DNA of 64,000 nt from the human T2T-CHM13v2.0 reference genome, Homo sapiens. The position numbers were made by a program, and so were the translations under genes. This document shows, in pieces, positions 1 through 7,886 of this stretch (positions within the stretch are counted from its first letter, which is position 1; every line of letters starts with the position of its first letter). The DNA lies in NCBI RefSeq assembly GCF_009914755.1, contig NC_060930.1, one strand, 5' to 3'. Below the pieces are notes generated by a model. That model worked only from the letters and a program-made list of their open reading frames with translations, searched no databases and had not been told where the DNA came from.

Positions 1-130
1 CTTATATTTTTAGTCGAGACAGGGTTTTACCATGTTGGGTAGGCTGGTCTCGAACTCCTGACCTCAGGTGATCCGCCCGCCTTGGCCTACCAAAGTGCTG
101 GGATTACAGGCATGAGCCACCGCACCCAGC
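1..130 (-). mobile_element. Alu (AluS-type), left arm, cut by the window edge
   Basis: Reverse-complement Alu text (ctcgaactcctgacctcaggtgatccgcccgcc...ggcatgagccaccgcacccagc). Confidence 0.9.
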
Positions 131-600
131 AGAATTACTTTAGACTTCTCAATGGCCAGTGGAAGATAGAAGGCCATGGAATAATGACTTTAAAATTCTA
201 AAGAAAAATTGTTACAATCTAGAATTCCATATATAGTTATACAATTAGGGATTAGATAGAATAAAGATAATTAGATATTTTTAGGCAAAATAGCCTCAAA
301 ATATACTTCCTGGTACAATTTCTCAAAAAATTACTAGAAAATATGTTTTAACGATTGAACAAACAAACCTGGAAAAACAAAGATATAGTACATGGAAAAT
401 GGAAAATGGAAAATACAACCCATGAGAAGGACAAAGGGAATCCTCAGATGAAGGGCGATCCCCGGATAAACACTGTAAGCCAAGTCTAGCAGATATTCAA
501 CCTAGATTACAACAGCTCAGAAATCTCAGAGAGATTGCTTCCAAAAGTTGAAATTAGTAGGGCACCTGGTGGACCTGAAATCCAGAGACATCTCAGGATG
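131..600 (+). mobile_element. Old L1/HAL1 ORF1-like fragment
   Basis: A-rich sequence with an L1 ORF1 C-terminal-like passage (gacttctcaa...atggaataatgactttaaaattctaaagaaaa...tctagaattccatat). Confidence 0.5.
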
Positions 601-810
601 TGTTATTCCTGGTCCTGCTTGCTCTCAGATCCATTTCCTGCCAATCCTCTGCTCTGCTCTGTGTTTCAGGGAGGGATGGTCCCTGCAGGTTGGCTTTCTC
701 GGGCTTCTACGTTAGTACATTTCTCACTGAGACCACTGGTAACAGTTTGGAGAAGAGGAAAGGAAGGAAAACCAGGTTATTTTCTATGTCTCTTTCTTGG
801 GCAACTCCCT
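600..810. mobile_element. ERVL LTR33-like fragment
   Basis: Resembles the recalled LTR33 consensus (ctctgctctgtgtttcagggagg...cactggtaacagtttggagaagaggaaaggaaggaaaaccaggttattttct). Confidence 0.45.
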
Positions 811-826
811 TAGTATTATAAGTTTC

Positions 827-1125
827 CTTTTTTTTTTTTTTTTTCTTGAGGCAAACTGTCACTCTGCTGCCCAGGCTGGAGTGCAGTGGCTTGATCATGG
901 CTCACTGCAGCCTCAACCTCCCAGCCTCAGGTAATCCCTCCACCCCAGCCTCCCGAGTAGCTGGGACAACAGGTGCACACTACCACACCCAGCTAACTTT
1001 TTGATTATCTGTAGAGATGGGGTTTCCCTGTGTTGCCCAGGCTGGTCTCAAACTTCTGGGCTCAAGCAATCCTCCTGCCTCATCCAAAGTGCTGGGATTA
1101 TAGGTATGAGCCACCAGACCCAGCC
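827..1125 (-). mobile_element. AluJ
   Basis: Poly-T followed by reverse-complement Alu with J-type text (gatcatggctcactgcagcctcaacctcc, ctcaagcaatcctcctgcc). Confidence 0.9.
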
Positions 1126-2366
1126 TAAGTTACCATTTTGATTCCATCTATCGCTGGATATTAATGCTATGGCTTCAGACACCACTTTTCTCCTTTTTCT
1201 CTCAAACCTAGAGAGAAAAGCTACTGATAGCATTCTGGTGTTACCAAAGTGTTTAGTTACTTCACTGCCCCCTTTAACTTCTCGCCTCCTCCCTGCATTC
1301 CAGTTCCTTAAATTCAATTCCTTTGTTGTAAATTCTTTTTTTTTCCAGTTTGAGAAATTAATGTGTATCAGTGATATAAGTTTCAAATACATTTCCAATA
1401 TTTCATGTGGCTTTTTCTTAGATGTCCTTGATTTACAATATGCAGGGATGTATTTATTTCTACAGTTGCATTTATCAATCTCTTCTATGGATTCTGATTT
1501 CCCCCACTGAGTTTATTAAAACAAATCCCCCTGCTTTTCCTTCTGGGTCCCTTCTCTGGACTTAACCTCCATGCTGAATACCCCCTCTCCTTCCATCCCT
1601 GCAGGTCTACTCTCCCTTTTCCCTGGATGTGCACAGGCCTTGGTCATCTTTGTACTCTCTGTTACTCCTTCCTGGAAAACCCTTCTACCCCTTATCTTCT
1701 AGCCTCCCAGGATCATCCTTCACATCTTACTTCAGAAGTGAAGTAGCTGTGCCTCCAGGAAGCCCTCCTGGACCACAACATGTACTGCCTTATTTACATT
1801 TACTGATTTACATCGTCATCCCCAGGGCTTGTGCAGCTGAGTCACCTCCATCATGTGTCATGTGGCCTTGTGAGCACCTGTTCCTAAATCCCCACTCCTT
1901 ACCAGACTCTGAATTTCCTGGAGTGAGCCCCTGTCAGAGGCATGGTGATAGGTCAGTAAACTAGTGTCAGGTGAGTATATGGATAGAGAACAAGAACGTT
2001 CAGGGTCAACCTGGATGCTAAAGTGTCAGTAACAGCATTGAAGAGGGTGTGGAATATGGGTCTAATCTGACATCCTATCTGGGTGTCCTGTGAAGCCTGA
2101 GACCTCTGTACTTTCTGGGGCCTCAAGCAAGCTGAACAGGGCCCATCAGTGCAGAGACCAAACTATATCACCCTTCACAGAGAAACTGGGGCCTGAGCCA
2201 GGCTCTGGGCTGCTGCTCACTCCTCTCTTTGGATCCATCCCATAGTCTCTGTTTCTCTCAGTCCATGTCTGTGTGTCTGAATCTGTCCCTCTATTTGCTC
2301 TTCTTCAGAGCTCTCCTTCTTTCTCAATGTCTTTGTCACTCTGACCCTCTGTCTCCTTCTCTCCAG

Positions 2367-2621
2367 AATCCATAACCCTGAAAGATGGTTTACCACTTCA
2401 CTTCAGGTCCTGGAAGGACAGTCTCTGCACCTGGTCTGTGCCGTCAATAGCAACCCTCCAGCCAGACTGAGCTGGGTCCAGAAGAGCCTGACCCTGAGCC
2501 CCTCCCAATCCAACACTGGGGTGCTAGAGCTGCAAGCGCACCTCAGAGATGAAGGATAATTTACCTGCCAAGCTCAGAGCCGTCTCGGAACAGCAGAGCT
2601 CCTTGACACTCTCTCTGCAGA
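2367..2621 (+). pseudogene. CD33-related Siglec C2-set Ig exon, disabled
   Basis: Acceptor ctctccag|2367 and donor a|gtgagt at 2622. From 2407 it reads VLEGQSLHLVCAVNSNPPARLSWVQKSLTLSPSQSNTGVLELQAHLRDEG*FTCQAQSRLG-fs-QQSSLTLSLQ. Both Ig cysteines are present (2437, 2566). Lesions: TAA at 2557, a 5-nt cactt duplication near 2394-2403, and a frameshift at ~2590. Confidence 0.9.
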
Positions 2622-2958
2622 GTGAGTGTCAAGGGGCTACTTGCCAGACTGCAGCCTCCCACAAACTGCAGCTCCCAGGTGGCTAAGCAAGTGGCCCCCT
2701 GGGGTCACCCAGGGAAATAGCAGTGTGCTCAGCCCAGATTCAAAGACAGCTTTGAGGCCTGGACTGACACTGAGGCCAGAGCCCTCTGTTTACTGCTGGT
2801 CAGTCTTGAGAGGGGTTGAGGTGAGGCCTGGACTGACATGTTCTTACATCCAGAGATTCAGGAATGATCTGGAGAATAAATGTCCAAGTCTTATAGGAAC
2901 AGGAAAAACAAGGAATTGTGGTTTAGCAGATGAATCTGCCTTGTCCCATTTTTCCCAG

Positions 2959-3052
2959 TAAAACCAGGGCCCATGGTGGAGGTGTTTATTTTGGCCATCG
3001 GGGAGGCAACTGTGAAGATCTCGTTTCTCTGTCTCTGCCTCATCTTCCTCAG
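2959..3052 (+). pseudogene. Siglec transmembrane exon with intramembrane lysine (activating, DAP12-type)
   Basis: Acceptor tttcccag|2959 and donor ag|gtgagt at 3053; phase-compatible with the preceding exon. Reads KPGPMVEVFILAIGEATVKISFLCLCLIFL, with the Lys codon at 3015-3017. Confidence 0.85.
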
Positions 3053-3388
3053 GTGAGTGCTGCCCCAGGACCAAAGCAGGAGGTGTGGGGCAGGCAGGGA
3101 CATGATGCTGAATTTGAGTCCTAGTGCTGGAGGGACCTGAACCAGTCAAGAGGGCCCAAGGCCAGCAGAAGTTGAGTTGTGGTGAGAATTCTGCATGGGC
3201 CAGTTGTTGTCTGTCCCCAACTCTGGGTGAGAGTCCAGCTCTCATCATGGAGATCTTGGAGGTTAGGCCTGCTTTCTCCACCTCAGTCCCTTCCAGCCCC
3301 TTAGCAGGGCACAGGGAGGTGAGTTTGCTGCTCTCTACACCCTGATCTGGCCACACTGACAGGCCCTGGGCCCTTTGCTTATTGTCAG

Positions 3389-3455
3389 GTCCTGCAGTAG
3401 GAAGGCAGCAAGGGCAGCAGCAGGTGTGGAGGCTGCAAACACCGTCACGGGCTAA
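3389..3455 (+). pseudogene. Siglec short cytoplasmic-tail exon (no ITIM)
   Basis: Acceptor tgtcag|3389. Reads (R)SCSRKAARAAAGVEAANTVTG-stop (TAA 3453-3455). Followed by a degenerate donor, tctctcag|atgagt. Confidence 0.8.
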
Positions 3456-3974
3456 TCTCTCAGATGAGTGTCATGGAGGTCTCACCCTCCAACATCCCAC
3501 TAGACACCTCTCCCTAGATGGCTCCTAGGATTGCTCCGCTCAACGTGGCCAAAGTTGAACCAACCATCTACCCACCCCCAACCAACTTTCTCTGCTGGGA
3601 CTCACATCTCACTGATGACACAGTGATCCCCTCTTTAAAGTCATAACAAGGGTGTGGTTCTCCACCTTGAGCTTCCTCCCTCCCTTCTCCACATCCCGTA
3701 CATCACTAATTCTTGTCCCTCCTTCTCCTAAGCAGGGCTCACCTTGGAGCCCTTTTCTCCATCCTAATCCTGGTCATTCCTGGAGCCTCACCTCTTCTCT
3801 GGTCACTGAACCCTCCTGACTTCCTGCCTCTATCTCTCCCCAACACAGGCCTGCACACAGAGCTTCCAGATGCCTCTGTGTCCAGTTCCTCCACAGTCTG
3901 AATGGCCATGTTTCCTTTCCATGGCTGTAGAATGAGGTGCAAACACTACAGCACAGTCTGTTTCCTGCTAGACT

Positions 3975-4092
3975 CTGCTCCCAAATGGTACACAAATGGC
4001 CAAAGAGCACACGAGAAGATGCTCAACATCATTAGTCATTTGACAAATGCAGATCAAAACTGTAAAGGAGATGCTACTTCACACTAATTAAA
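3975..4092 (+). mobile_element. L1M ORF2 fragment inside the retrocopy
   Basis: acaaatggccaaagagcacacgagaagatgctcaacatcattagtcatt...atgcagatcaaaac is typical L1 ORF2 3' text. Confidence 0.8.
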
Positions 4093-4097
4093 ACAGC

Positions 4098-4245
4098 TGT
4101 ACTATTTTCCCATTGCTTCTGTAACAAATTACCCCAACATTAGTGGTTTGAAACACCACCACTTACTTCCTTACAGTTCTGCAGGTCAGAAGGATGAAAC
4201 AGGACTCACTGGACTATAAAATCAAGGATGGTTCCTTCTGGATGC
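4098..4245 (-). mobile_element. MLT1 (MaLR) LTR 3' fragment inside the retrocopy
   Basis: tgtactattttcccattgcttctgtaacaaattacc...ttacagttctgcaggtcagaag matches the reverse-complement MLT1 end. Confidence 0.75.
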
Positions 4246-4254
4246 TTTTTGAAG

Positions 4255-4405
4255 CAAGGGTTTTATTGTTGGGTCTGCAGGCTATACAAGAAGCATAGTG
4301 GCTTCTGATTTTGCTTGACTTCTGGGAAGGCCTCAGGAAACTTAAAATCATGGCAAAAGGTGAAGGGGGAGCCAGCACTTCACACGGCTAGAGAAGGAGG
4401 AAAAG
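4255..4405 (-). mobile_element. MST (MaLR) LTR fragment forming the 5' end of the retrocopy
   Basis: ctgcaggctatacaagaagcat...ggcctcaggaaacttaaaatcatggcaaaaggtgaagggggagccagcacttcacacggc matches MSTA/MSTB. The match stops exactly at the TSD. Confidence 0.8.
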
Positions 4406-4553
4406 CTTTGTTGTAAATTCTTAAAATGGTTTCATTTTTCCTGGTGAGATGTATGGTTAAATTACAAAGTAATACCTAGAAATCTAAGAAAAACAATAAA
4501 ATAAAATAATTAATAGCAAGGAACAAAATTTGCGTAAGAAAGAGAAGGTTCTC

Positions 4554-4886
<333 letters not shown>

Positions 4887-7886
4887 TTACTTTTATTTAA
4901 ATGATCAAAGTAATATAAATAATTAATATTTGCTCTAACAAAGATTAGACTCACTTTTCATAACCCAAACCCTACAAAATGATAGACCAGATCATAGAAA
5001 TTCTCCTATAGAGCAAAAAGATACTCCTATTTATAATAGGTAAGTCTTGCAGCTCTGTTGAGAAAAGGACAATATGATGTACAGGAAATTAAAGAAAAGC
5101 TCTTCCTTTCTAGTGGGAGGGGTAGAGGAAGGATGGTAGAGAGAAGAAAGAAAAGGGAGAAAGGAAGTATGGGACATATAACATGTGGATCCTGATATAG
5201 TTTTCTCCAGTCTTCTTTCCGAAAAACACAGGTATATTGGGTAAACTCCAAATGAGGAGATCTGGCCCCTTCTCTATCTTTGGGACTTTAGAAAGAGACT
5301 ACCTCTCAAAACTGGAGAGAGAAGCATACCAAGTAAATTTGATAGCAACTCCGAGTTCTATCTGAGAGCTTGTCAGAAGTAGCTGCTGTAATTAGGATGA
5401 GAGTTCTTGGAGCTGGGGTTTGAAGGGCAGAACACTCTAACTGGAGTTAAGGAGTTCAGACAGTACTAAAGGGGTGCCAAGGTGGAACCAAATCAATGGA
5501 AAGAGAACACAAAGTCCTCACTGAGTTGAGGACAAAGAGAACACAAGCTCATGGCCATAATTGTCAGCAATAAATACCATCAATGGAGACAGCTCATAAA
5601 TGAATTAAACCAGCCAGTGCACCCCCCCACCCACAAGGACCAGCCTAGGGTCAAGGAGACTCGTTTCCCTTAATTCTCTCAATAACCCCAACTAATAACT
5701 TCAACACACTGCAAAAGATGCTACTAGTGGTCCAGTAACCCCACTATTCTTCCAAAAGATGCTACTTGGGGAGGAACCCAGAAGGGAAGCAGAATCCTAA
5801 AAGAACCTGAGTAATATAAGATAAACAAAGTTACCTAAAGAGAAAAATTATGTTTGGATACTACTGCTTCATGCTAACTTGGGCTATAATTGGTTTATGT
5901 ATATTTTCTGACTACCTAGAGATATCAAGAAGCACATTTGAGTTGTTGTAGTCCATTGGCAACCTCACAATACAGAAGTTTAGCTACAATGTGACAATTT
6001 TATTCATGAAAATACGGAAGCACAGAGGGCTTAAATGTCTTTGCCAAGGTTAAAGCTGAAAATAGAATGATGATTTCAACTACAGTTGACCTTAGTAAAA
6101 AGCGGATCCTCTTTACCAAATACGAGTACCTTGATCCCTCAGCAAAGGCTCTTTTTCCTGCACCTTCACTCTCCAGCCACTAGCTTTCTTTTCCTACCCC
6201 AACTTCTAGTTAATGATACAGCTCTTCATTCTGCTCATGACCATGTGTCTGATGTTTACTACAGATACAATTAGCTTAAAGTTTGCTTAAAGTTACAGAT
6301 AAAAAAAGCTAACAAGTTACTTTACATCAGGCCATCTATAAAAACAAATGAAAGAGGAACTCACAGTCACTTGTAGACTCTGAACAGATGTCTTTGGCAA
6401 GAATAGAATGTAGAAAGGAGAAAATTCCATACCACGATGCCACTTGGACAGTTCTGAGAACACTGATACAGCTTCCCCATTTTTAAATTTATAATTACAG
6501 TAAAACTCTGGTGAAAATACAAGTCAAGAATATATCAGCTGACAAGAGAATATTTTCAACAAGAATGACCACTCAGACTTAGAATCTATGATGGTTAAAA
6601 TAGAAAGGTAGCTAATTTGAGATGTGCAAGGATGCTGAACAGGAGGCATTCTACAGCACCCGTCACTTGACCTCCTTTCACAATTTGTGGTGCTCCTGGG
6701 TATCAAAGATCTAATTATTTTAATCATTATTCTTTCTGTGGGTTTTAAAATAATTAATTTGTTTCCTATTCCGTCTAAGCTCTCAAGAAAACTGTGGAGT
6801 CTTGTCATAATACTTTGTAATTTATAACTTTCCTTTAGTTATATTGTTTCCTGGTATTCTCACAATACTTCATGTGATAGATGATAGGGATGAGAAACTG
6901 TGGTTCCAAGAATTCAAGCAATTTCTGCAAGGCCCCATTACTGGAACATGAGGAGCTGGGATTCCAAACCCAGTCTTCCAACTGCAAATCCCTTTCCACT
7001 CTAATTCCTTCCTGAATTTATCTGATTTACAGCAGGGCAATGACTCCCAAACCTTAATTCTGCCCTAGGAAATTACTCATACTTTCTCTTTATCATCAAA
7101 AGGGAGTCTGTCAAGAATCAGTATCAAAAATTCTTAATCTGGTGAACTGTATTGCTCTTCCAAATTTAACTCTACACCAAATTATGCATAGAAAGAGATT
7201 CTTTGGCCTGCAGACCTGAGATTCTGAAATTTTTTATAGTGCCTAACAGACCTTTTTGATCCATCACATTTAGTCACATCAATCATATCAACTCAAAGAA
7301 CACACTGTAGAGAAAATAATGTAACTTGATTGATGTGAACAGATGTGACATGGGACAATTAAGTTTCAGTTTAAGGACCCAAGGAGAAGAAACACCTGAT
7401 GCTCTATAAGGTTCACTAAACAAAGACCCCATTGCTAACAGTATAAATAGGATTTATAGGCTTTGTTTTCCCAAGTGGAAGAGAGAAGAAATACAATATA
7501 TGTTAATAGTATAATATGTGTTTATCTACCGTGCATGGGCAGAAAATTCCCTGCCTGTCTGAAATCTAATATTTCCTATGGCATTCTAGAGCCAAGTCTA
7601 ACCTAGCAATGCTAATCAACAGGGAAAATAATACTGTATTTTAGGAAATAAATTGTCATTATTTTACATATGGATGAAAACATTTCAAAATAATTCAATA
7701 TATTACTTTAAGAAAAATAAGGAATTTTAATAGACTTGAAATGTAAATAATCCTTTATTGGGAATATTTTTGAAGCATTTTAGATGGTGAATATTTAAAG
7801 GCATTTATATTGATACAAAGATTATAACCATTCCTTTCAAAGTCTTCTTTTTCTTGAGTTCCACTTCATAATTTAAGCCTAAGTAA

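What the first reader, a model, noticed from the sequence alone, without database searches (positions are those of the whole stretch)
2367..3470. The captured gene is an activating-type Siglec, possibly a relative of one lost in humans
Seen: the TM segment AIGEATVKISFLCLCLIFL has a central Lys, and the tail is only ~21 residues with no tyrosine motif. The stop sits just before a decayed donor (cag|atgagt), where inhibitory Siglecs splice on to the ITIM exon. Established: CD33-related Siglecs with a basic TM residue signal through DAP12; SIGLEC13 is deleted and SIGLEC17 inactivated in humans. Inference: from memory, the TM and tail most resemble the Siglec-13 / mouse CD33 / Siglec-H type. The insert may therefore preserve part of a gene whose source copy is degraded or gone. 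No V-set (sialic-acid-binding) exon is present, and the C2 exon has a stop and two frameshifts.
Basis: partly seen in the sequence, partly recalled or inferred. Interest (0 to 1): 0.8.

Follow-up and report, generated by a model that had tools for sequence, protein, structure and literature searches.

The report
Retrocopied fragment of an activating Siglec
A 3-kb piece of an activating-type Siglec immune-receptor gene was copied backwards, through RNA, from the chromosome 19 Siglec cluster into chromosome 6; it is a dead fragment whose source copy is no longer in the human genome.

Summary
Observation confirmed. Window 2367-3470 holds three exon relics of a CD33-related Siglec. They are a membrane-proximal C2-set exon (one stop, two frameshifts, two in-frame deletions), a TM exon with a mid-helix Lys, and a Tyr-free tail of 22-24 residues. 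The tail ends in TAA 8 nt before a decayed donor.

TM Lys, short tail and stop-before-donor are shared derived marks of a "K-type" module. It also occurs at four chr19 loci (SIGLEC16, SIGLEC17P, two pseudogenes) and in a chr1 processed pseudogene; ape Siglec-13 has a like TM Lys and short tail.

The relics lie inside a 3,068-bp L1-mediated retrocopy (perfect 17-bp target-site duplication, TTTT/AA site, A-tail on the minus strand). The copied RNA was unspliced and antisense to the Siglec. Its 5' end coincides with the predicted start site of a MaLR-type LTR.

No other human locus exceeds 77% identity over the roughly 1-kb block. The insert is about equidistant from every K-type lineage (JC 0.27-0.32), furthest from SIGLEC17P. 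It is no closer to gorilla Siglec-13 (36/54 aa) than to SIGLEC16 (34/54).

"Activating type" is supported and "source gone from the human genome" is supported. A specific Siglec-13/17 affinity is not. The fragment was dead on arrival and is absent from the RefSeq table supplied. Interest is modest.

The parts
1321..1337 (.). Left copy of the 17-bp target-site duplication (CTTTGTTGTAAATTCTT).
   Evidence: Perfect 17/17 direct repeat with 4406-4422. Both flanks are single-copy in the genome.
1338..1344 (-). Remnant poly(A) tail of the retrocopied RNA. It is 7 A, or 9 if the two bases shared with the duplication are counted.
   Evidence: T-run on the + strand directly after the left duplication.
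1345..4405 (-). Body of the retrocopied RNA (3,061 nt), read on the minus strand. It is antisense to the Siglec exons and keeps the Siglec introns.
   Evidence: It is bounded by the duplication and the A-tail. The minus-strand target reads TTTT|AAGAATTT, which is the L1 endonuclease site.
1357..1362 (-). ATTAAT hexamer, one base off ATTAAA, 12-17 nt upstream of the A-tail. It is the likely polyadenylation signal.
   Evidence: The nearest canonical AATAAA lies about 110 nt upstream of the tail, which is too far.
1345..2257 (+). About 0.9 kb of source-locus sequence upstream of the C2 exon. It has no detectable relative elsewhere in the human genome.
   Evidence: The genome search with 1338-2366 returned only itself and one 97-bp chr19 match at query 921-1021. 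No Siglec exon was found there by tblastn and there was no Pfam hit.
2367..2621 (+). Relic of a membrane-proximal C2-set Ig exon of the SIGLEC7/8/9/12/13 type. It carries stop TAA at 2557-2559, a +5 insertion near 2393-2397, a -2 deletion after 2588 and two 3-bp deletions.
2959..3052 (+). Transmembrane exon with the Lys codon AAG at 3015-3017. Its acceptor and GT donor are intact.
3383..3463 (+). Short cytoplasmic-tail exon with no Tyr and stop TAA at 3453-3455. The ancestral acceptor AG is now AT, and the donor after 3463 is AT instead of GT.
3849..3975 (+). Homologue of the 3'-untranslated exon that K-type mRNAs splice to from the donor after the stop.
   Evidence: The chr1 processed copy joins the homologues of 2961-3052, 3375-3463 and 3846-3951 without introns.
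3976..4093 (+). Fragment of an old L1 ORF2 (C-terminal part). It was present in the source locus but not in the chr19 paralogues.
   Evidence: It is a dispersed repeat: 830 first-look candidates, 40 scored, 39 matches elsewhere at 76-90%. The ORF overlapping the matched stretch in copy L037 matches L1 ORF2p (PDB 8SXT) residues 1019-1083 at E 6e-18. L002 and L004 diverge from the insert at about 3975-3985.
4098..4405 (-). 3' part (R-U5) of a MaLR-type LTR in the same sense as the copied RNA. The insert begins where the LTR's transcription start is predicted.
   Evidence: Twelve genomic copies were fetched and all 12 align to 4405 down to about 4238-4274. Nine of 9 usable copies have a TTTAAA-type box 28-33 nt upstream of the base matching 4405. 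The copies are discrete elements of 388-426 bp, most of them with TGATATGG...AATACA termini. The family name is recalled, not tested.
4406..4422 (.). Right copy of the 17-bp target-site duplication.

Best explanation
The Siglec exons are passengers in an L1-mediated retrocopy and have never worked at this site.

**Origin of the RNA (inferred).** In an ancestor, a MaLR-type solo LTR sat about 0.65 kb downstream of an activating ('K-type') CD33-related Siglec gene or pseudogene in the chr19 cluster. The LTR pointed back into that gene. Transcription started at the LTR's own start site and ran past the LTR's AATAAA. It then crossed an L1 fragment and, in antisense, the 3'UTR exon, tail exon, TM exon and last C2 exon. 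It was polyadenylated about 1 kb further on.

**Insertion (shown).** L1 endonuclease and reverse transcriptase inserted this unspliced 3.06-kb RNA at a TTTT/AA site in 6q22, making a 17-bp target-site duplication.

**Nature of the source (shown).** It combined a SIGLEC7/8/9/12/13-type membrane-proximal C2 exon with the Lys-TM and short-tail module of SIGLEC16, SIGLEC17P and Siglec-13. It forms a separate branch of that radiation, and no copy of it remains in the human genome.

**State of the fragment (shown).** It lacks a promoter, signal peptide and V-set exon, sits antisense to the RNA that carried it, and has decayed neutrally.

What is inferred rather than shown: that the RNA began at the LTR start site, that the source lay on chr19, and the date.
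For: **Retrocopy.**
- Perfect 17-bp duplication at 1321-1337 and 4406-4422.
- A-tail on the minus strand directly inside the left duplication, and a TTTT|AA target.
- Both flanks are single-copy.

**Antisense and unspliced.** The exons read on the + strand with their introns in place.

**LTR start.**
- All 12 fetched genomic copies of the repeat align up to window base 4402-4406, except one that stops at 4388.
- In the 9 copies whose alignment begins exactly at 4405, a TTTAAA(A/G)-type box lies 28-33 nt upstream of that base. L025, L028 and L029 were left out of this count.
- The copies are discrete 388-426-bp elements with LTR-like termini.
- Passages of PMC12963367 say that ERVL-MaLR LTRs supply transcription start sites in human tissues. 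They also say that narrow-peak TE-derived start sites carry a TATA box at -25 to -30.

**K-type membership.**
- The 1-kb block 2961-3985 aligns with four chr19 loci at 73-77%.
- The Lys codon is shared by all five sequences. So is the 1-bp deletion that creates TAA before the donor, relative to the inhibitory SIGLEC8/9/12-type loci.
- In the ML tree the K-type clade has 100% support against four inhibitory loci. Inside it the branching is star-like, with internal branches of 0.013-0.022 against terminal branches of 0.12-0.155.

**Source absent.** The best other human matches are 77% and 76% over about 1 kb and 76% over 285 bp for the C2 exon. There is none for 1338-2257.

**Architecture.** L002, L004 and L005 have no such C2 exon next to the TM exon, and SIGLEC16's is only 66% identical.
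Against: **Date.** The date is open and the clues pull apart.
- The perfect 17-bp duplication and the pure A-run suggest a younger event.
- One stop and four indels in a 255-bp exon suggest long neutral decay. So do the 0.155 terminal branch and a CpG observed/expected ratio of 0.08.
- Both fit only if the source was already a pseudogene or the duplication survived by luck.

**LTR start.**
- The 5' end at the LTR start site could be a coincidence of 5' truncation.
- The LTR subfamily was not classified because no repeat library was available.
- The insert's U5 half (4098-4246) matches another LTR type better (L008, 84%).

**RNA 3' end.** The polyadenylation hexamer is ATTAAT, not a canonical signal, and four AATAAA hexamers were read through.

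**Separate lineage.**
- The tree puts the insert next to L002, with only 59% support. Descent from the ancestor of an extant locus is therefore not excluded.
- The exon versus non-coding substitution rate on the chr6 branch (10/100 against 53/448) does not tell a once-functional source from a dead one.
Confidence: 0.7

Rival explanations
1. The source was SIGLEC13 itself, the gene deleted from humans by Alu-Alu recombination. On this reading the insert is a fossil of that gene.
For: - Siglec-13 has the matching architecture: a SIGLEC7/8/9/12-type second C2 domain followed by a Lys-TM and a short tail (P0062, P0031).
- The 9-residue TM core AIGEATVKI is identical in gorilla Siglec-13.
- SIGLEC13 is absent from the human genome according to passages of PMC7379906. 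That would explain why no source is found.
Against: - TM+tail identity to gorilla Siglec-13 is 36/54. That is no better than to SIGLEC16 (34/54) or L005 (35/54), even though Siglec-13 evolves slowly (93-96% among catarrhines; strings).
- The Thr of the shared core is Ala in orangutan, gibbon and Old World monkey Siglec-13, so it is not an old shared mark.
- C2 exon identity is 65.7-67%, the same as to Siglec-12 and a tarsier Siglec.
- Siglec-13 has its own derived residues in the TM and tail that chr6 lacks.
- Only proteins could be compared. No ape DNA was on hand.
Confidence: 0.12
2. No gene was lost. The insert is a very old retrocopy, made about when the K-type genes radiated, of the ancestor of a locus that still exists on chr19. 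The best candidate is the pseudogene at C19:54.631 Mb (L002). The roughly 25% divergence is simply age.
For: - L002 is the best human match (77%) and is the weak sister in the tree (59%).
- The chr6 terminal branch (0.155) is as long as those of the chr19 paralogues (0.12-0.15).
- The exons look neutral over the whole branch.
- CpG observed/expected is 0.08.
Against: - L002 has no membrane-proximal C2 exon between its CD33-like C2 exon and its TM exon. It also lacks the L1 fragment and the LTR downstream.
- By my estimate, two perfect 17-bp copies after about 0.12-0.15 substitutions per site would be expected in only about 1-5% of cases.
- The sister grouping is unsupported statistically.
Confidence: 0.2
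3. The retrocopy is an ordinary 5'-truncated copy of some long antisense or read-through transcript, for example the 3' end of a convergent neighbour. On this reading the LTR is a passenger and the match of the 5' end to its start site is chance.
For: - 5' truncation is the rule for L1-mediated copies (general knowledge).
- The LTR's U5 half resembles a different subfamily from its R part, so the promoter assignment is not clean.
- According to passages of PMC12963367, old MST/MLT1 LTRs have dispersed, weak start sites.
Against: - The first base of the insert falls 28-33 nt downstream of the TTTAAA-type box in 9 of 9 usable copies.
- By my estimate, a random end in a 3-kb RNA lands within such a 6-nt window in roughly 0.2% of cases. 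The window was, however, chosen after seeing the data.
Confidence: 0.25
4. The segment moved as DNA (segmental duplication or transposition) or by an L1 3' transduction, not as a free antisense RNA.
For: It keeps its introns, which is unusual for retrocopies. It also contains an L1 fragment.
Against: - The A-tail, the 17-bp duplication and the TTTT/AA site are the marks of target-primed reverse transcription.
- The L1 fragment is a 118-bp ORF2 piece on the strand opposite to the copied RNA. It therefore cannot be the driver of a transduction.
- Introns are kept because the RNA was antisense to them.
Confidence: 0.03

Closest known systems
SIGLEC16 (human DAP12-associated activating Siglec; locus L003, C19:52.97 Mb)
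   Same: It has the same TM exon with the Lys codon and the same tail exon. It has the same TAA 8 nt before a GT donor and the same downstream block. Identity is 76% over 966 bp and 34/54 aa for TM+tail.
   Different: SIGLEC16 is a whole gene in the cluster with a Siglec-11-type V-set and C2 domains. Its last C2 exon is only 66% identical to the chr6 exon. That L003 is SIGLEC16 is my inference, from the Siglec-11-like V-set plus the K-type tail.
Siglec-13 of apes and Old World monkeys (deleted in humans)
   Same: The domain order matches: a SIGLEC7/8/9/12-type second C2, then a Lys-TM, then a short Tyr-free tail. The TM core of 9 residues is identical in gorilla.
   Different: Identity is only 36/54 aa in TM+tail and 65.7-67% in the C2 exon, no closer than other paralogues. 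Siglec-13 is an expressed, conserved gene (PMC7379906 passages). DNA was not compared.
SIGLEC17P (Siglec-P3; locus L004/L013, C19:54.26 Mb)
   Same: It has the K-type TM, tail, stop and donor.
   Different: It is the most distant human relative (JC 0.316). It is CD33-like with two Ig exons and no membrane-proximal C2 exon next to the TM. Its tail has diverged strongly.
Processed Siglec pseudogene on chr1 (C1:169.4716-169.4729 Mb, L032)
   Same: It is another retro-copied K-type Siglec outside chr19. It has the same TM Lys and the same last ten tail residues.
   Different: It is spliced, in the sense orientation and nearly full length, with signal peptide, a Siglec-11/16-like V-set, one C2 and a linker. 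It is not a special relative of the chr6 copy: 0.807 identity against 0.75-0.805 for the chr19 loci.
L1-mediated retrocopies of LTR-initiated, unspliced transcripts
   Same: It has the target-site duplication, the A-tail and the endonuclease site. Its 5' end lies at a promoter inside a repeat.
   Different: The cargo is antisense genomic sequence of an immune-receptor gene with its introns, not an mRNA. No function is implied.

Membership tests
CD33-related Siglec, activating (basic-TM, DAP12-coupled) subtype | Ig C2-set exon homologous to CD33rSiglec membrane-proximal domains. | tested here: met
   PDB Siglec-8 domain 3 at E 2.2e-20. 406 proteins at E<=1e-5; nearly all of the 120 listed that bear a name are Siglecs. 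Aligned with five chr19 C2 exons.
CD33-related Siglec, activating (basic-TM, DAP12-coupled) subtype | Basic residue (Lys or Arg) in the middle of the TM helix. | tested here: met
   AAG at 3015-3017. The same codon is present in L002-L005 and in the chr1 copy. Inhibitory loci have ACA there.
CD33-related Siglec, activating (basic-TM, DAP12-coupled) subtype | Short cytoplasmic tail without ITIM or ITIM-like tyrosines. | tested here: met
   22-24 residues with no Tyr. The stop is created by a 1-bp deletion shared by all K-type loci.
CD33-related Siglec, activating (basic-TM, DAP12-coupled) subtype | N-terminal V-set domain with the sialic-acid-binding Arg, and a signal peptide. | tested here: not met
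   There is no V-set or other upstream exon anywhere in the insert (tblastn with six Siglecs). The piece is a 3' fragment only.
CD33-related Siglec, activating (basic-TM, DAP12-coupled) subtype | Open reading frame, and association with DAP12. | tested here: not met
   One stop and two frameshifts in the C2 exon. One acceptor and one donor are lost. DAP12 binding cannot be tested and is moot for a fragment.
SIGLEC13 lineage | Closer to Siglec-13 than to any other K-type paralogue. | tested here: not met
   36/54 aa against 34-35/54 for SIGLEC16 and L005. C2 identity is 65.7-67%, equal to Siglec-12 and a tarsier Siglec. This is a protein-level comparison only.
SIGLEC13 lineage | Collinear DNA identity through the introns and 3' flank with primate SIGLEC13. 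| not testable with these tools
   No non-human primate genome or SIGLEC13 DNA could be reached.
SIGLEC17P lineage | Closest human relative is SIGLEC17P. | tested here: not met
   It has the largest distance of the four chr19 loci (JC 0.316). In the tree it groups with L005, not with chr6.
L1-mediated retrocopy (target-primed reverse transcription) | Target-site duplication, 3' poly(A) and a TTTT/AA cleavage site. | tested here: met
L1-mediated retrocopy (target-primed reverse transcription) | Loss of introns (a classical processed pseudogene). | tested here: not met
   The Siglec introns are kept because the RNA was antisense. It is an unspliced retrocopy, not a processed pseudogene of the Siglec mRNA. 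The chr1 copy is the processed kind.
Orphan L1 3' transduction | Cargo lies downstream, in the sense direction, of a source L1. | tested here: not met
   The only L1 piece is an ORF2 fragment on the opposite strand.

The most novel reading that the evidence does not exclude
The chr6 insert is the only surviving trace in humans of a fifth primate lineage of DAP12-type CD33-related Siglecs. That lineage had a Siglec-13-like build (SIGLEC7/8/9/12-type C2 followed by a Lys-TM) and has since been erased from the chr19 cluster. The insert also records that a MaLR LTR once drove germline antisense transcription through that receptor gene. Together with the chr1 processed copy, it would let the ancestral activating module of the paired Siglec receptors be reconstructed and dated.
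Probability: 0.3. Interest if true: 0.5.

Novelty: new member of a known kind. Interest (0 to 1): 0.3.

Why it matters
The CD33-related Siglec cluster gains and loses genes quickly, and humans lost or disabled several activating members. A neutral copy parked outside the cluster escapes the gene conversion and deletion that blur the cluster's history. It can therefore serve as a dated witness of a paralogue that is otherwise gone.

Here the witness shows three things.
- The Lys-TM, short-tail, stop-before-donor module was already fixed when the K-type genes radiated.
- At least one more K-type lineage existed than the four still on human chr19.
- An LTR may have driven antisense transcription across such a gene.

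For function the result is negative. The fragment has no promoter, no ligand-binding domain and no open frame. It should not be counted as a gene or as a candidate receptor.

Tried and rejected
1. **Candidate remnants of the source on chr19.** The LTR-like match at C19:54,517,501-54,517,653 (84%) is a different, complete LTR that shares only the U5 end. The C2-like pieces at C19:54.515 and 54.290 Mb are 67-68% identical over their full length and are not collinear with the insert. Both were rejected.
2. **chr1 processed copy as a sister of chr6.** It is not closer than the chr19 loci, and the exon-only tree has supports of 25-53%.
3. **Exon versus non-coding substitution rates, to tell a live source from a dead one.** The result was inconclusive. 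chr6 gives 0.85, but SIGLEC16 also gives 0.93, and the counts are small.
4. **Dating from the flanks.** Both flanks are single-copy, so no datable repeat was hit.
5. **Dating from the LTR.** Mean pairwise identity is 75.7% among the 12 copies (65 of 66 pairs aligned over at least 250 bp). The insert is 79.0% identical to the copies. This is about as old as the paralogue radiation, so it gives no useful bound. Passages of PMC10735291 say MST and THE1 are primate-only, but I could not assign the subfamily.
6. **Pfam on the L1-like frame, on the 128-aa ORF 1578-1964 and on four L037 ORFs.** No real hits. A PDB search with the window's own L1-like frame also found nothing. The L1 identity came only through a genomic copy.
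7. **Protein search with the TM-exon ORF.** It returned a single 100%-identical unnamed 215-aa entry and not even Siglec-13. This is no evidence about closer relatives.
8. **The bacterial promoter/terminator scan** is not meaningful for human DNA.
9. **Literature.** Three of the four full-text searches bore on this. None gave a paper that mentions a Siglec relic on chromosome 6 or chromosome 1. I saw listings only, apart from the passages cited. GENCODE and HGNC could not be consulted.
Full report
**What is there.** The window is human chr6:122.574-122.638 Mb. On the + strand between 2367 and 3470 lie three exon-like blocks with proper splice borders.
- Block 1 (2367-2621) translates, up to a TAA at 2557-2559, into an Ig C2-set segment. 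It matches domain 3 of Siglec-8 in the PDB at E 2.2e-20. It also hits 406 proteins at E<=1e-5, and nearly all of the 120 listed that bear a name are Siglecs.
- Block 2 (2959-3052) is a hydrophobic TM segment with AAG (Lys) at 3015-3017.
- Block 3 (3383/3389-3463) encodes a Tyr-free tail and stops at TAA 3453-3455, 8 nt before cag|ATgagt.

Against five paralogous C2 exons, the chr6 exon has one stop, a +5 insertion, a -2 deletion and two in-frame 3-bp deletions. No V-set or other upstream exon is present in window 1-6000.

**The exons sit in a retrocopy.** A perfect 17-bp direct repeat (1321-1337 and 4406-4422) brackets 3,068 bp. Directly inside the left repeat is a run of T, which is an A-tail on the minus strand. 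The minus-strand target reads TTTT|AAGAATTT, the L1 endonuclease site. Both flanks are single-copy. The copied RNA was therefore antisense to the Siglec exons, which explains why their introns are retained. An ATTAAT hexamer lies 12-17 nt before the tail. Four AATAAA hexamers further upstream were read through.

**Where the RNA began.** The first 308 nt of the RNA (window 4405 down to 4098) are the 3' part of an LTR.
- Twelve genomic copies were fetched. All align to the insert's first roughly 130-175 nt, and 11 of them stop within 3 nt of base 4405.
- The copies are discrete elements of 388-426 bp, most of them with TGATATGG...AATACA termini. I recognise these as MaLR (MST/THE1-like) from memory. 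No repeat library was available to test this.
- In the nine copies whose alignment starts exactly at 4405, a TTTAAA(A/G)-type box begins 28-33 nt upstream of that base. Three copies were left out because their alignments start at 4402, 4406 and 4388.
- Passages of PMC12963367 state that ERVL-MaLR LTRs supply transcription start sites. They also state that focused TE-derived start sites carry a TATA box at -25 to -30.

I therefore read the retrocopy as a full-length copy of an LTR-initiated transcript. This step is inferred.

Next to the LTR, 3976-4093 is a fragment of L1 ORF2 on the opposite strand. It is a dispersed repeat, with 830 candidates and 39 scored matches elsewhere. In genomic copy L037 the ORF overlapping the matched stretch matches L1 ORF2p residues 1019-1083 at E 6e-18.

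**Relatives in the human genome.** The whole genome is searchable.
- The block 2961-3985 (TM exon, intron, tail exon, about 500 bp downstream) has four chr19 relatives at 77, 76, 73 and 73% identity, plus three short adjacent pieces on chr1.
- The C2 exon with its introns has chr19 relatives at 71-76%, and up to 79% over about 95-bp pieces.
- Window 1338-2257 has none.

All five long sequences share three features relative to the inhibitory SIGLEC8/9/12-type loci. These are the Lys codon, a 15-bp deletion, and the 1-bp deletion that turns GGCTCAGCC into GGCTAATC. The last change creates the TAA just before the GT donor. I call this the K-type module.

Naming of the loci:
- L003 has a Siglec-11-like V-set upstream and is SIGLEC16 by inference.
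- L004 has a CD33-like V-set with FFW in place of FFR. This is the R>W change that PMC7379906 table 1 lists for SIGLEC17.
- L006 encodes exactly the Siglec-8 residues shown in the PDB alignment.
- Other locus names in my tree labels are inferences from position.

**Phylogeny and distances.**
- Over 2961-3951 the insert differs from L002, L003, L004 and L005 by JC 0.266, 0.267, 0.316 and 0.285. The chr19 loci differ from each other by 0.234-0.271.
- An ML tree with four inhibitory loci as outgroup gives the K-type clade 100% support. Inside it, internal branches are 0.013-0.022 and terminal branches 0.12-0.155. The insert pairs with L002 at only 59%.

The insert is thus one more branch of a star-like radiation and not a recent copy of any human locus. 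Structurally its source differed from all four. L002, L004 and L005 are CD33-like and lack a membrane-proximal C2 exon beside the TM exon, and SIGLEC16's last C2 exon is only 66% identical. None of them has the L1 fragment and LTR downstream.

**The Siglec-13 question.** The protein database holds ape and monkey Siglec-13.
- Its build matches that of the chr6 source: a SIGLEC7/8/9/12-type second C2, a Lys-TM and a short tail.
- The 9-residue TM core is identical in gorilla. However, the Thr in it is Ala in orangutan, gibbon and Old World monkey Siglec-13.
- Over the 54 TM+tail codons, my count on the strings printed gives 36 identities to gorilla Siglec-13, 35 to L005, 34 to SIGLEC16 and 33 to the chr1 copy.
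- The C2 exon is 65.7-67% identical to Siglec-13, and 65-67% to Siglec-12 and a tarsier Siglec.
- Siglec-13 TM-tail is 93-96% conserved among catarrhines, so a copy made from it within catarrhine time would be far closer.

A specific Siglec-13 origin is therefore not supported. Only a DNA comparison with primate SIGLEC13 can close the matter, and no such DNA was within reach.

**Age.** The age is unresolved.
- A perfect 2 x 17-bp duplication and a pure A-run argue for the younger part of the possible range. With no change in about 43 sites, my rough bound is under about 0.07 substitutions per site.
- The exon lesions, a CpG observed/expected ratio of 0.08 and the long terminal branch argue for long neutral decay.
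- Both fit if the source was already a dead gene piece when transcribed.
- The LTR family is about as old as the radiation: 75.7% mean pairwise identity in 65 of 66 pairs. It therefore gives no useful upper bound.

**In passing.** chr1:169.4716-169.4729 Mb holds a processed, sense-oriented K-type Siglec pseudogene. It runs from signal peptide through a Siglec-11/16-like V-set (60% aa identity to human Siglec-11), one C2, a linker, a Lys-TM and a tail to a 3' exon, all without introns. It proves that the GT donor after the stop is used and is spliced to the homologue of window 3849 onward.

**Verdict.** This is a real, well-defined, non-functional relic. It is absent from the RefSeq table supplied with the finding. 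Three full-text searches gave no paper that mentions it, and GENCODE and HGNC could not be checked. It is a new member of known kinds: an L1-mediated retrocopy and a Siglec pseudogene fragment. Its value is as an evolutionary witness, not as a gene.

Noticed in passing
L032 about 3050-4400 (G000:C1:169,471,550-169,472,900, + strand): A processed, intron-less pseudogene of a K-type Siglec. It has a signal peptide, a Siglec-11/16-like V-set (60% aa identity to human Siglec-11 over 204 aa, with stops), one C2, a linker, a Lys-TM, a short tail and a 3' exon. It shows the splice pattern of K-type mRNAs. I do not know whether it is annotated.
   Followed up: partly
protein database entry P0002 (117 aa, from a 1,125-bp contig): Its first part is identical to the chr6 frame (intron-derived residues and the first 47 of the C2 exon). 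The rest is identical to a Siglec-12-type exon (P0077/P0101). It looks like an assembly chimera between this relic and a chr19 Siglec. This is a warning that short-read assemblies can merge the two.
   Followed up: no
protein database entries P0001 (167 aa) and P0127 (215 aa): These are unnamed predicted proteins 100% identical to window frames across the C2 and TM relics. P0001 reads two TGA codons as W. They are gene-caller artefacts on non-coding DNA. Their origin was not pursued.
   Followed up: no
L002 (G000:C19:54,631,115-54,632,092, - strand) with L015 upstream: This is the best human match of the insert. It is a decayed CD33-like pseudogene with a K-type TM, a broken TM-exon donor (CAGCTGAGC), a 7-bp deletion in the tail exon and an Alu just upstream of the TM exon.
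   Followed up: partly
window 2753-2769 and 2822-2838: A perfect 17-nt direct repeat spaced 69 bp apart in the intron between the C2 and TM exons. The SIGLEC16 locus shows both halves in diverged form, so it is probably an old tandem duplication of the intron.
   Followed up: no
window about 840-1130 and about 4555-4850: Alu elements flank the insert on both sides, but none lies inside its 3 kb.
   Followed up: no
L035 (G000:C19:54,287,488-54,290,078) and L033 (C19:54,515,043-54,515,281): Further decayed Siglec exon relics in the chr19 cluster: a V-set with stops, and C2 exons 67-68% identical to the chr6 exon. They were not named.
   Followed up: partly
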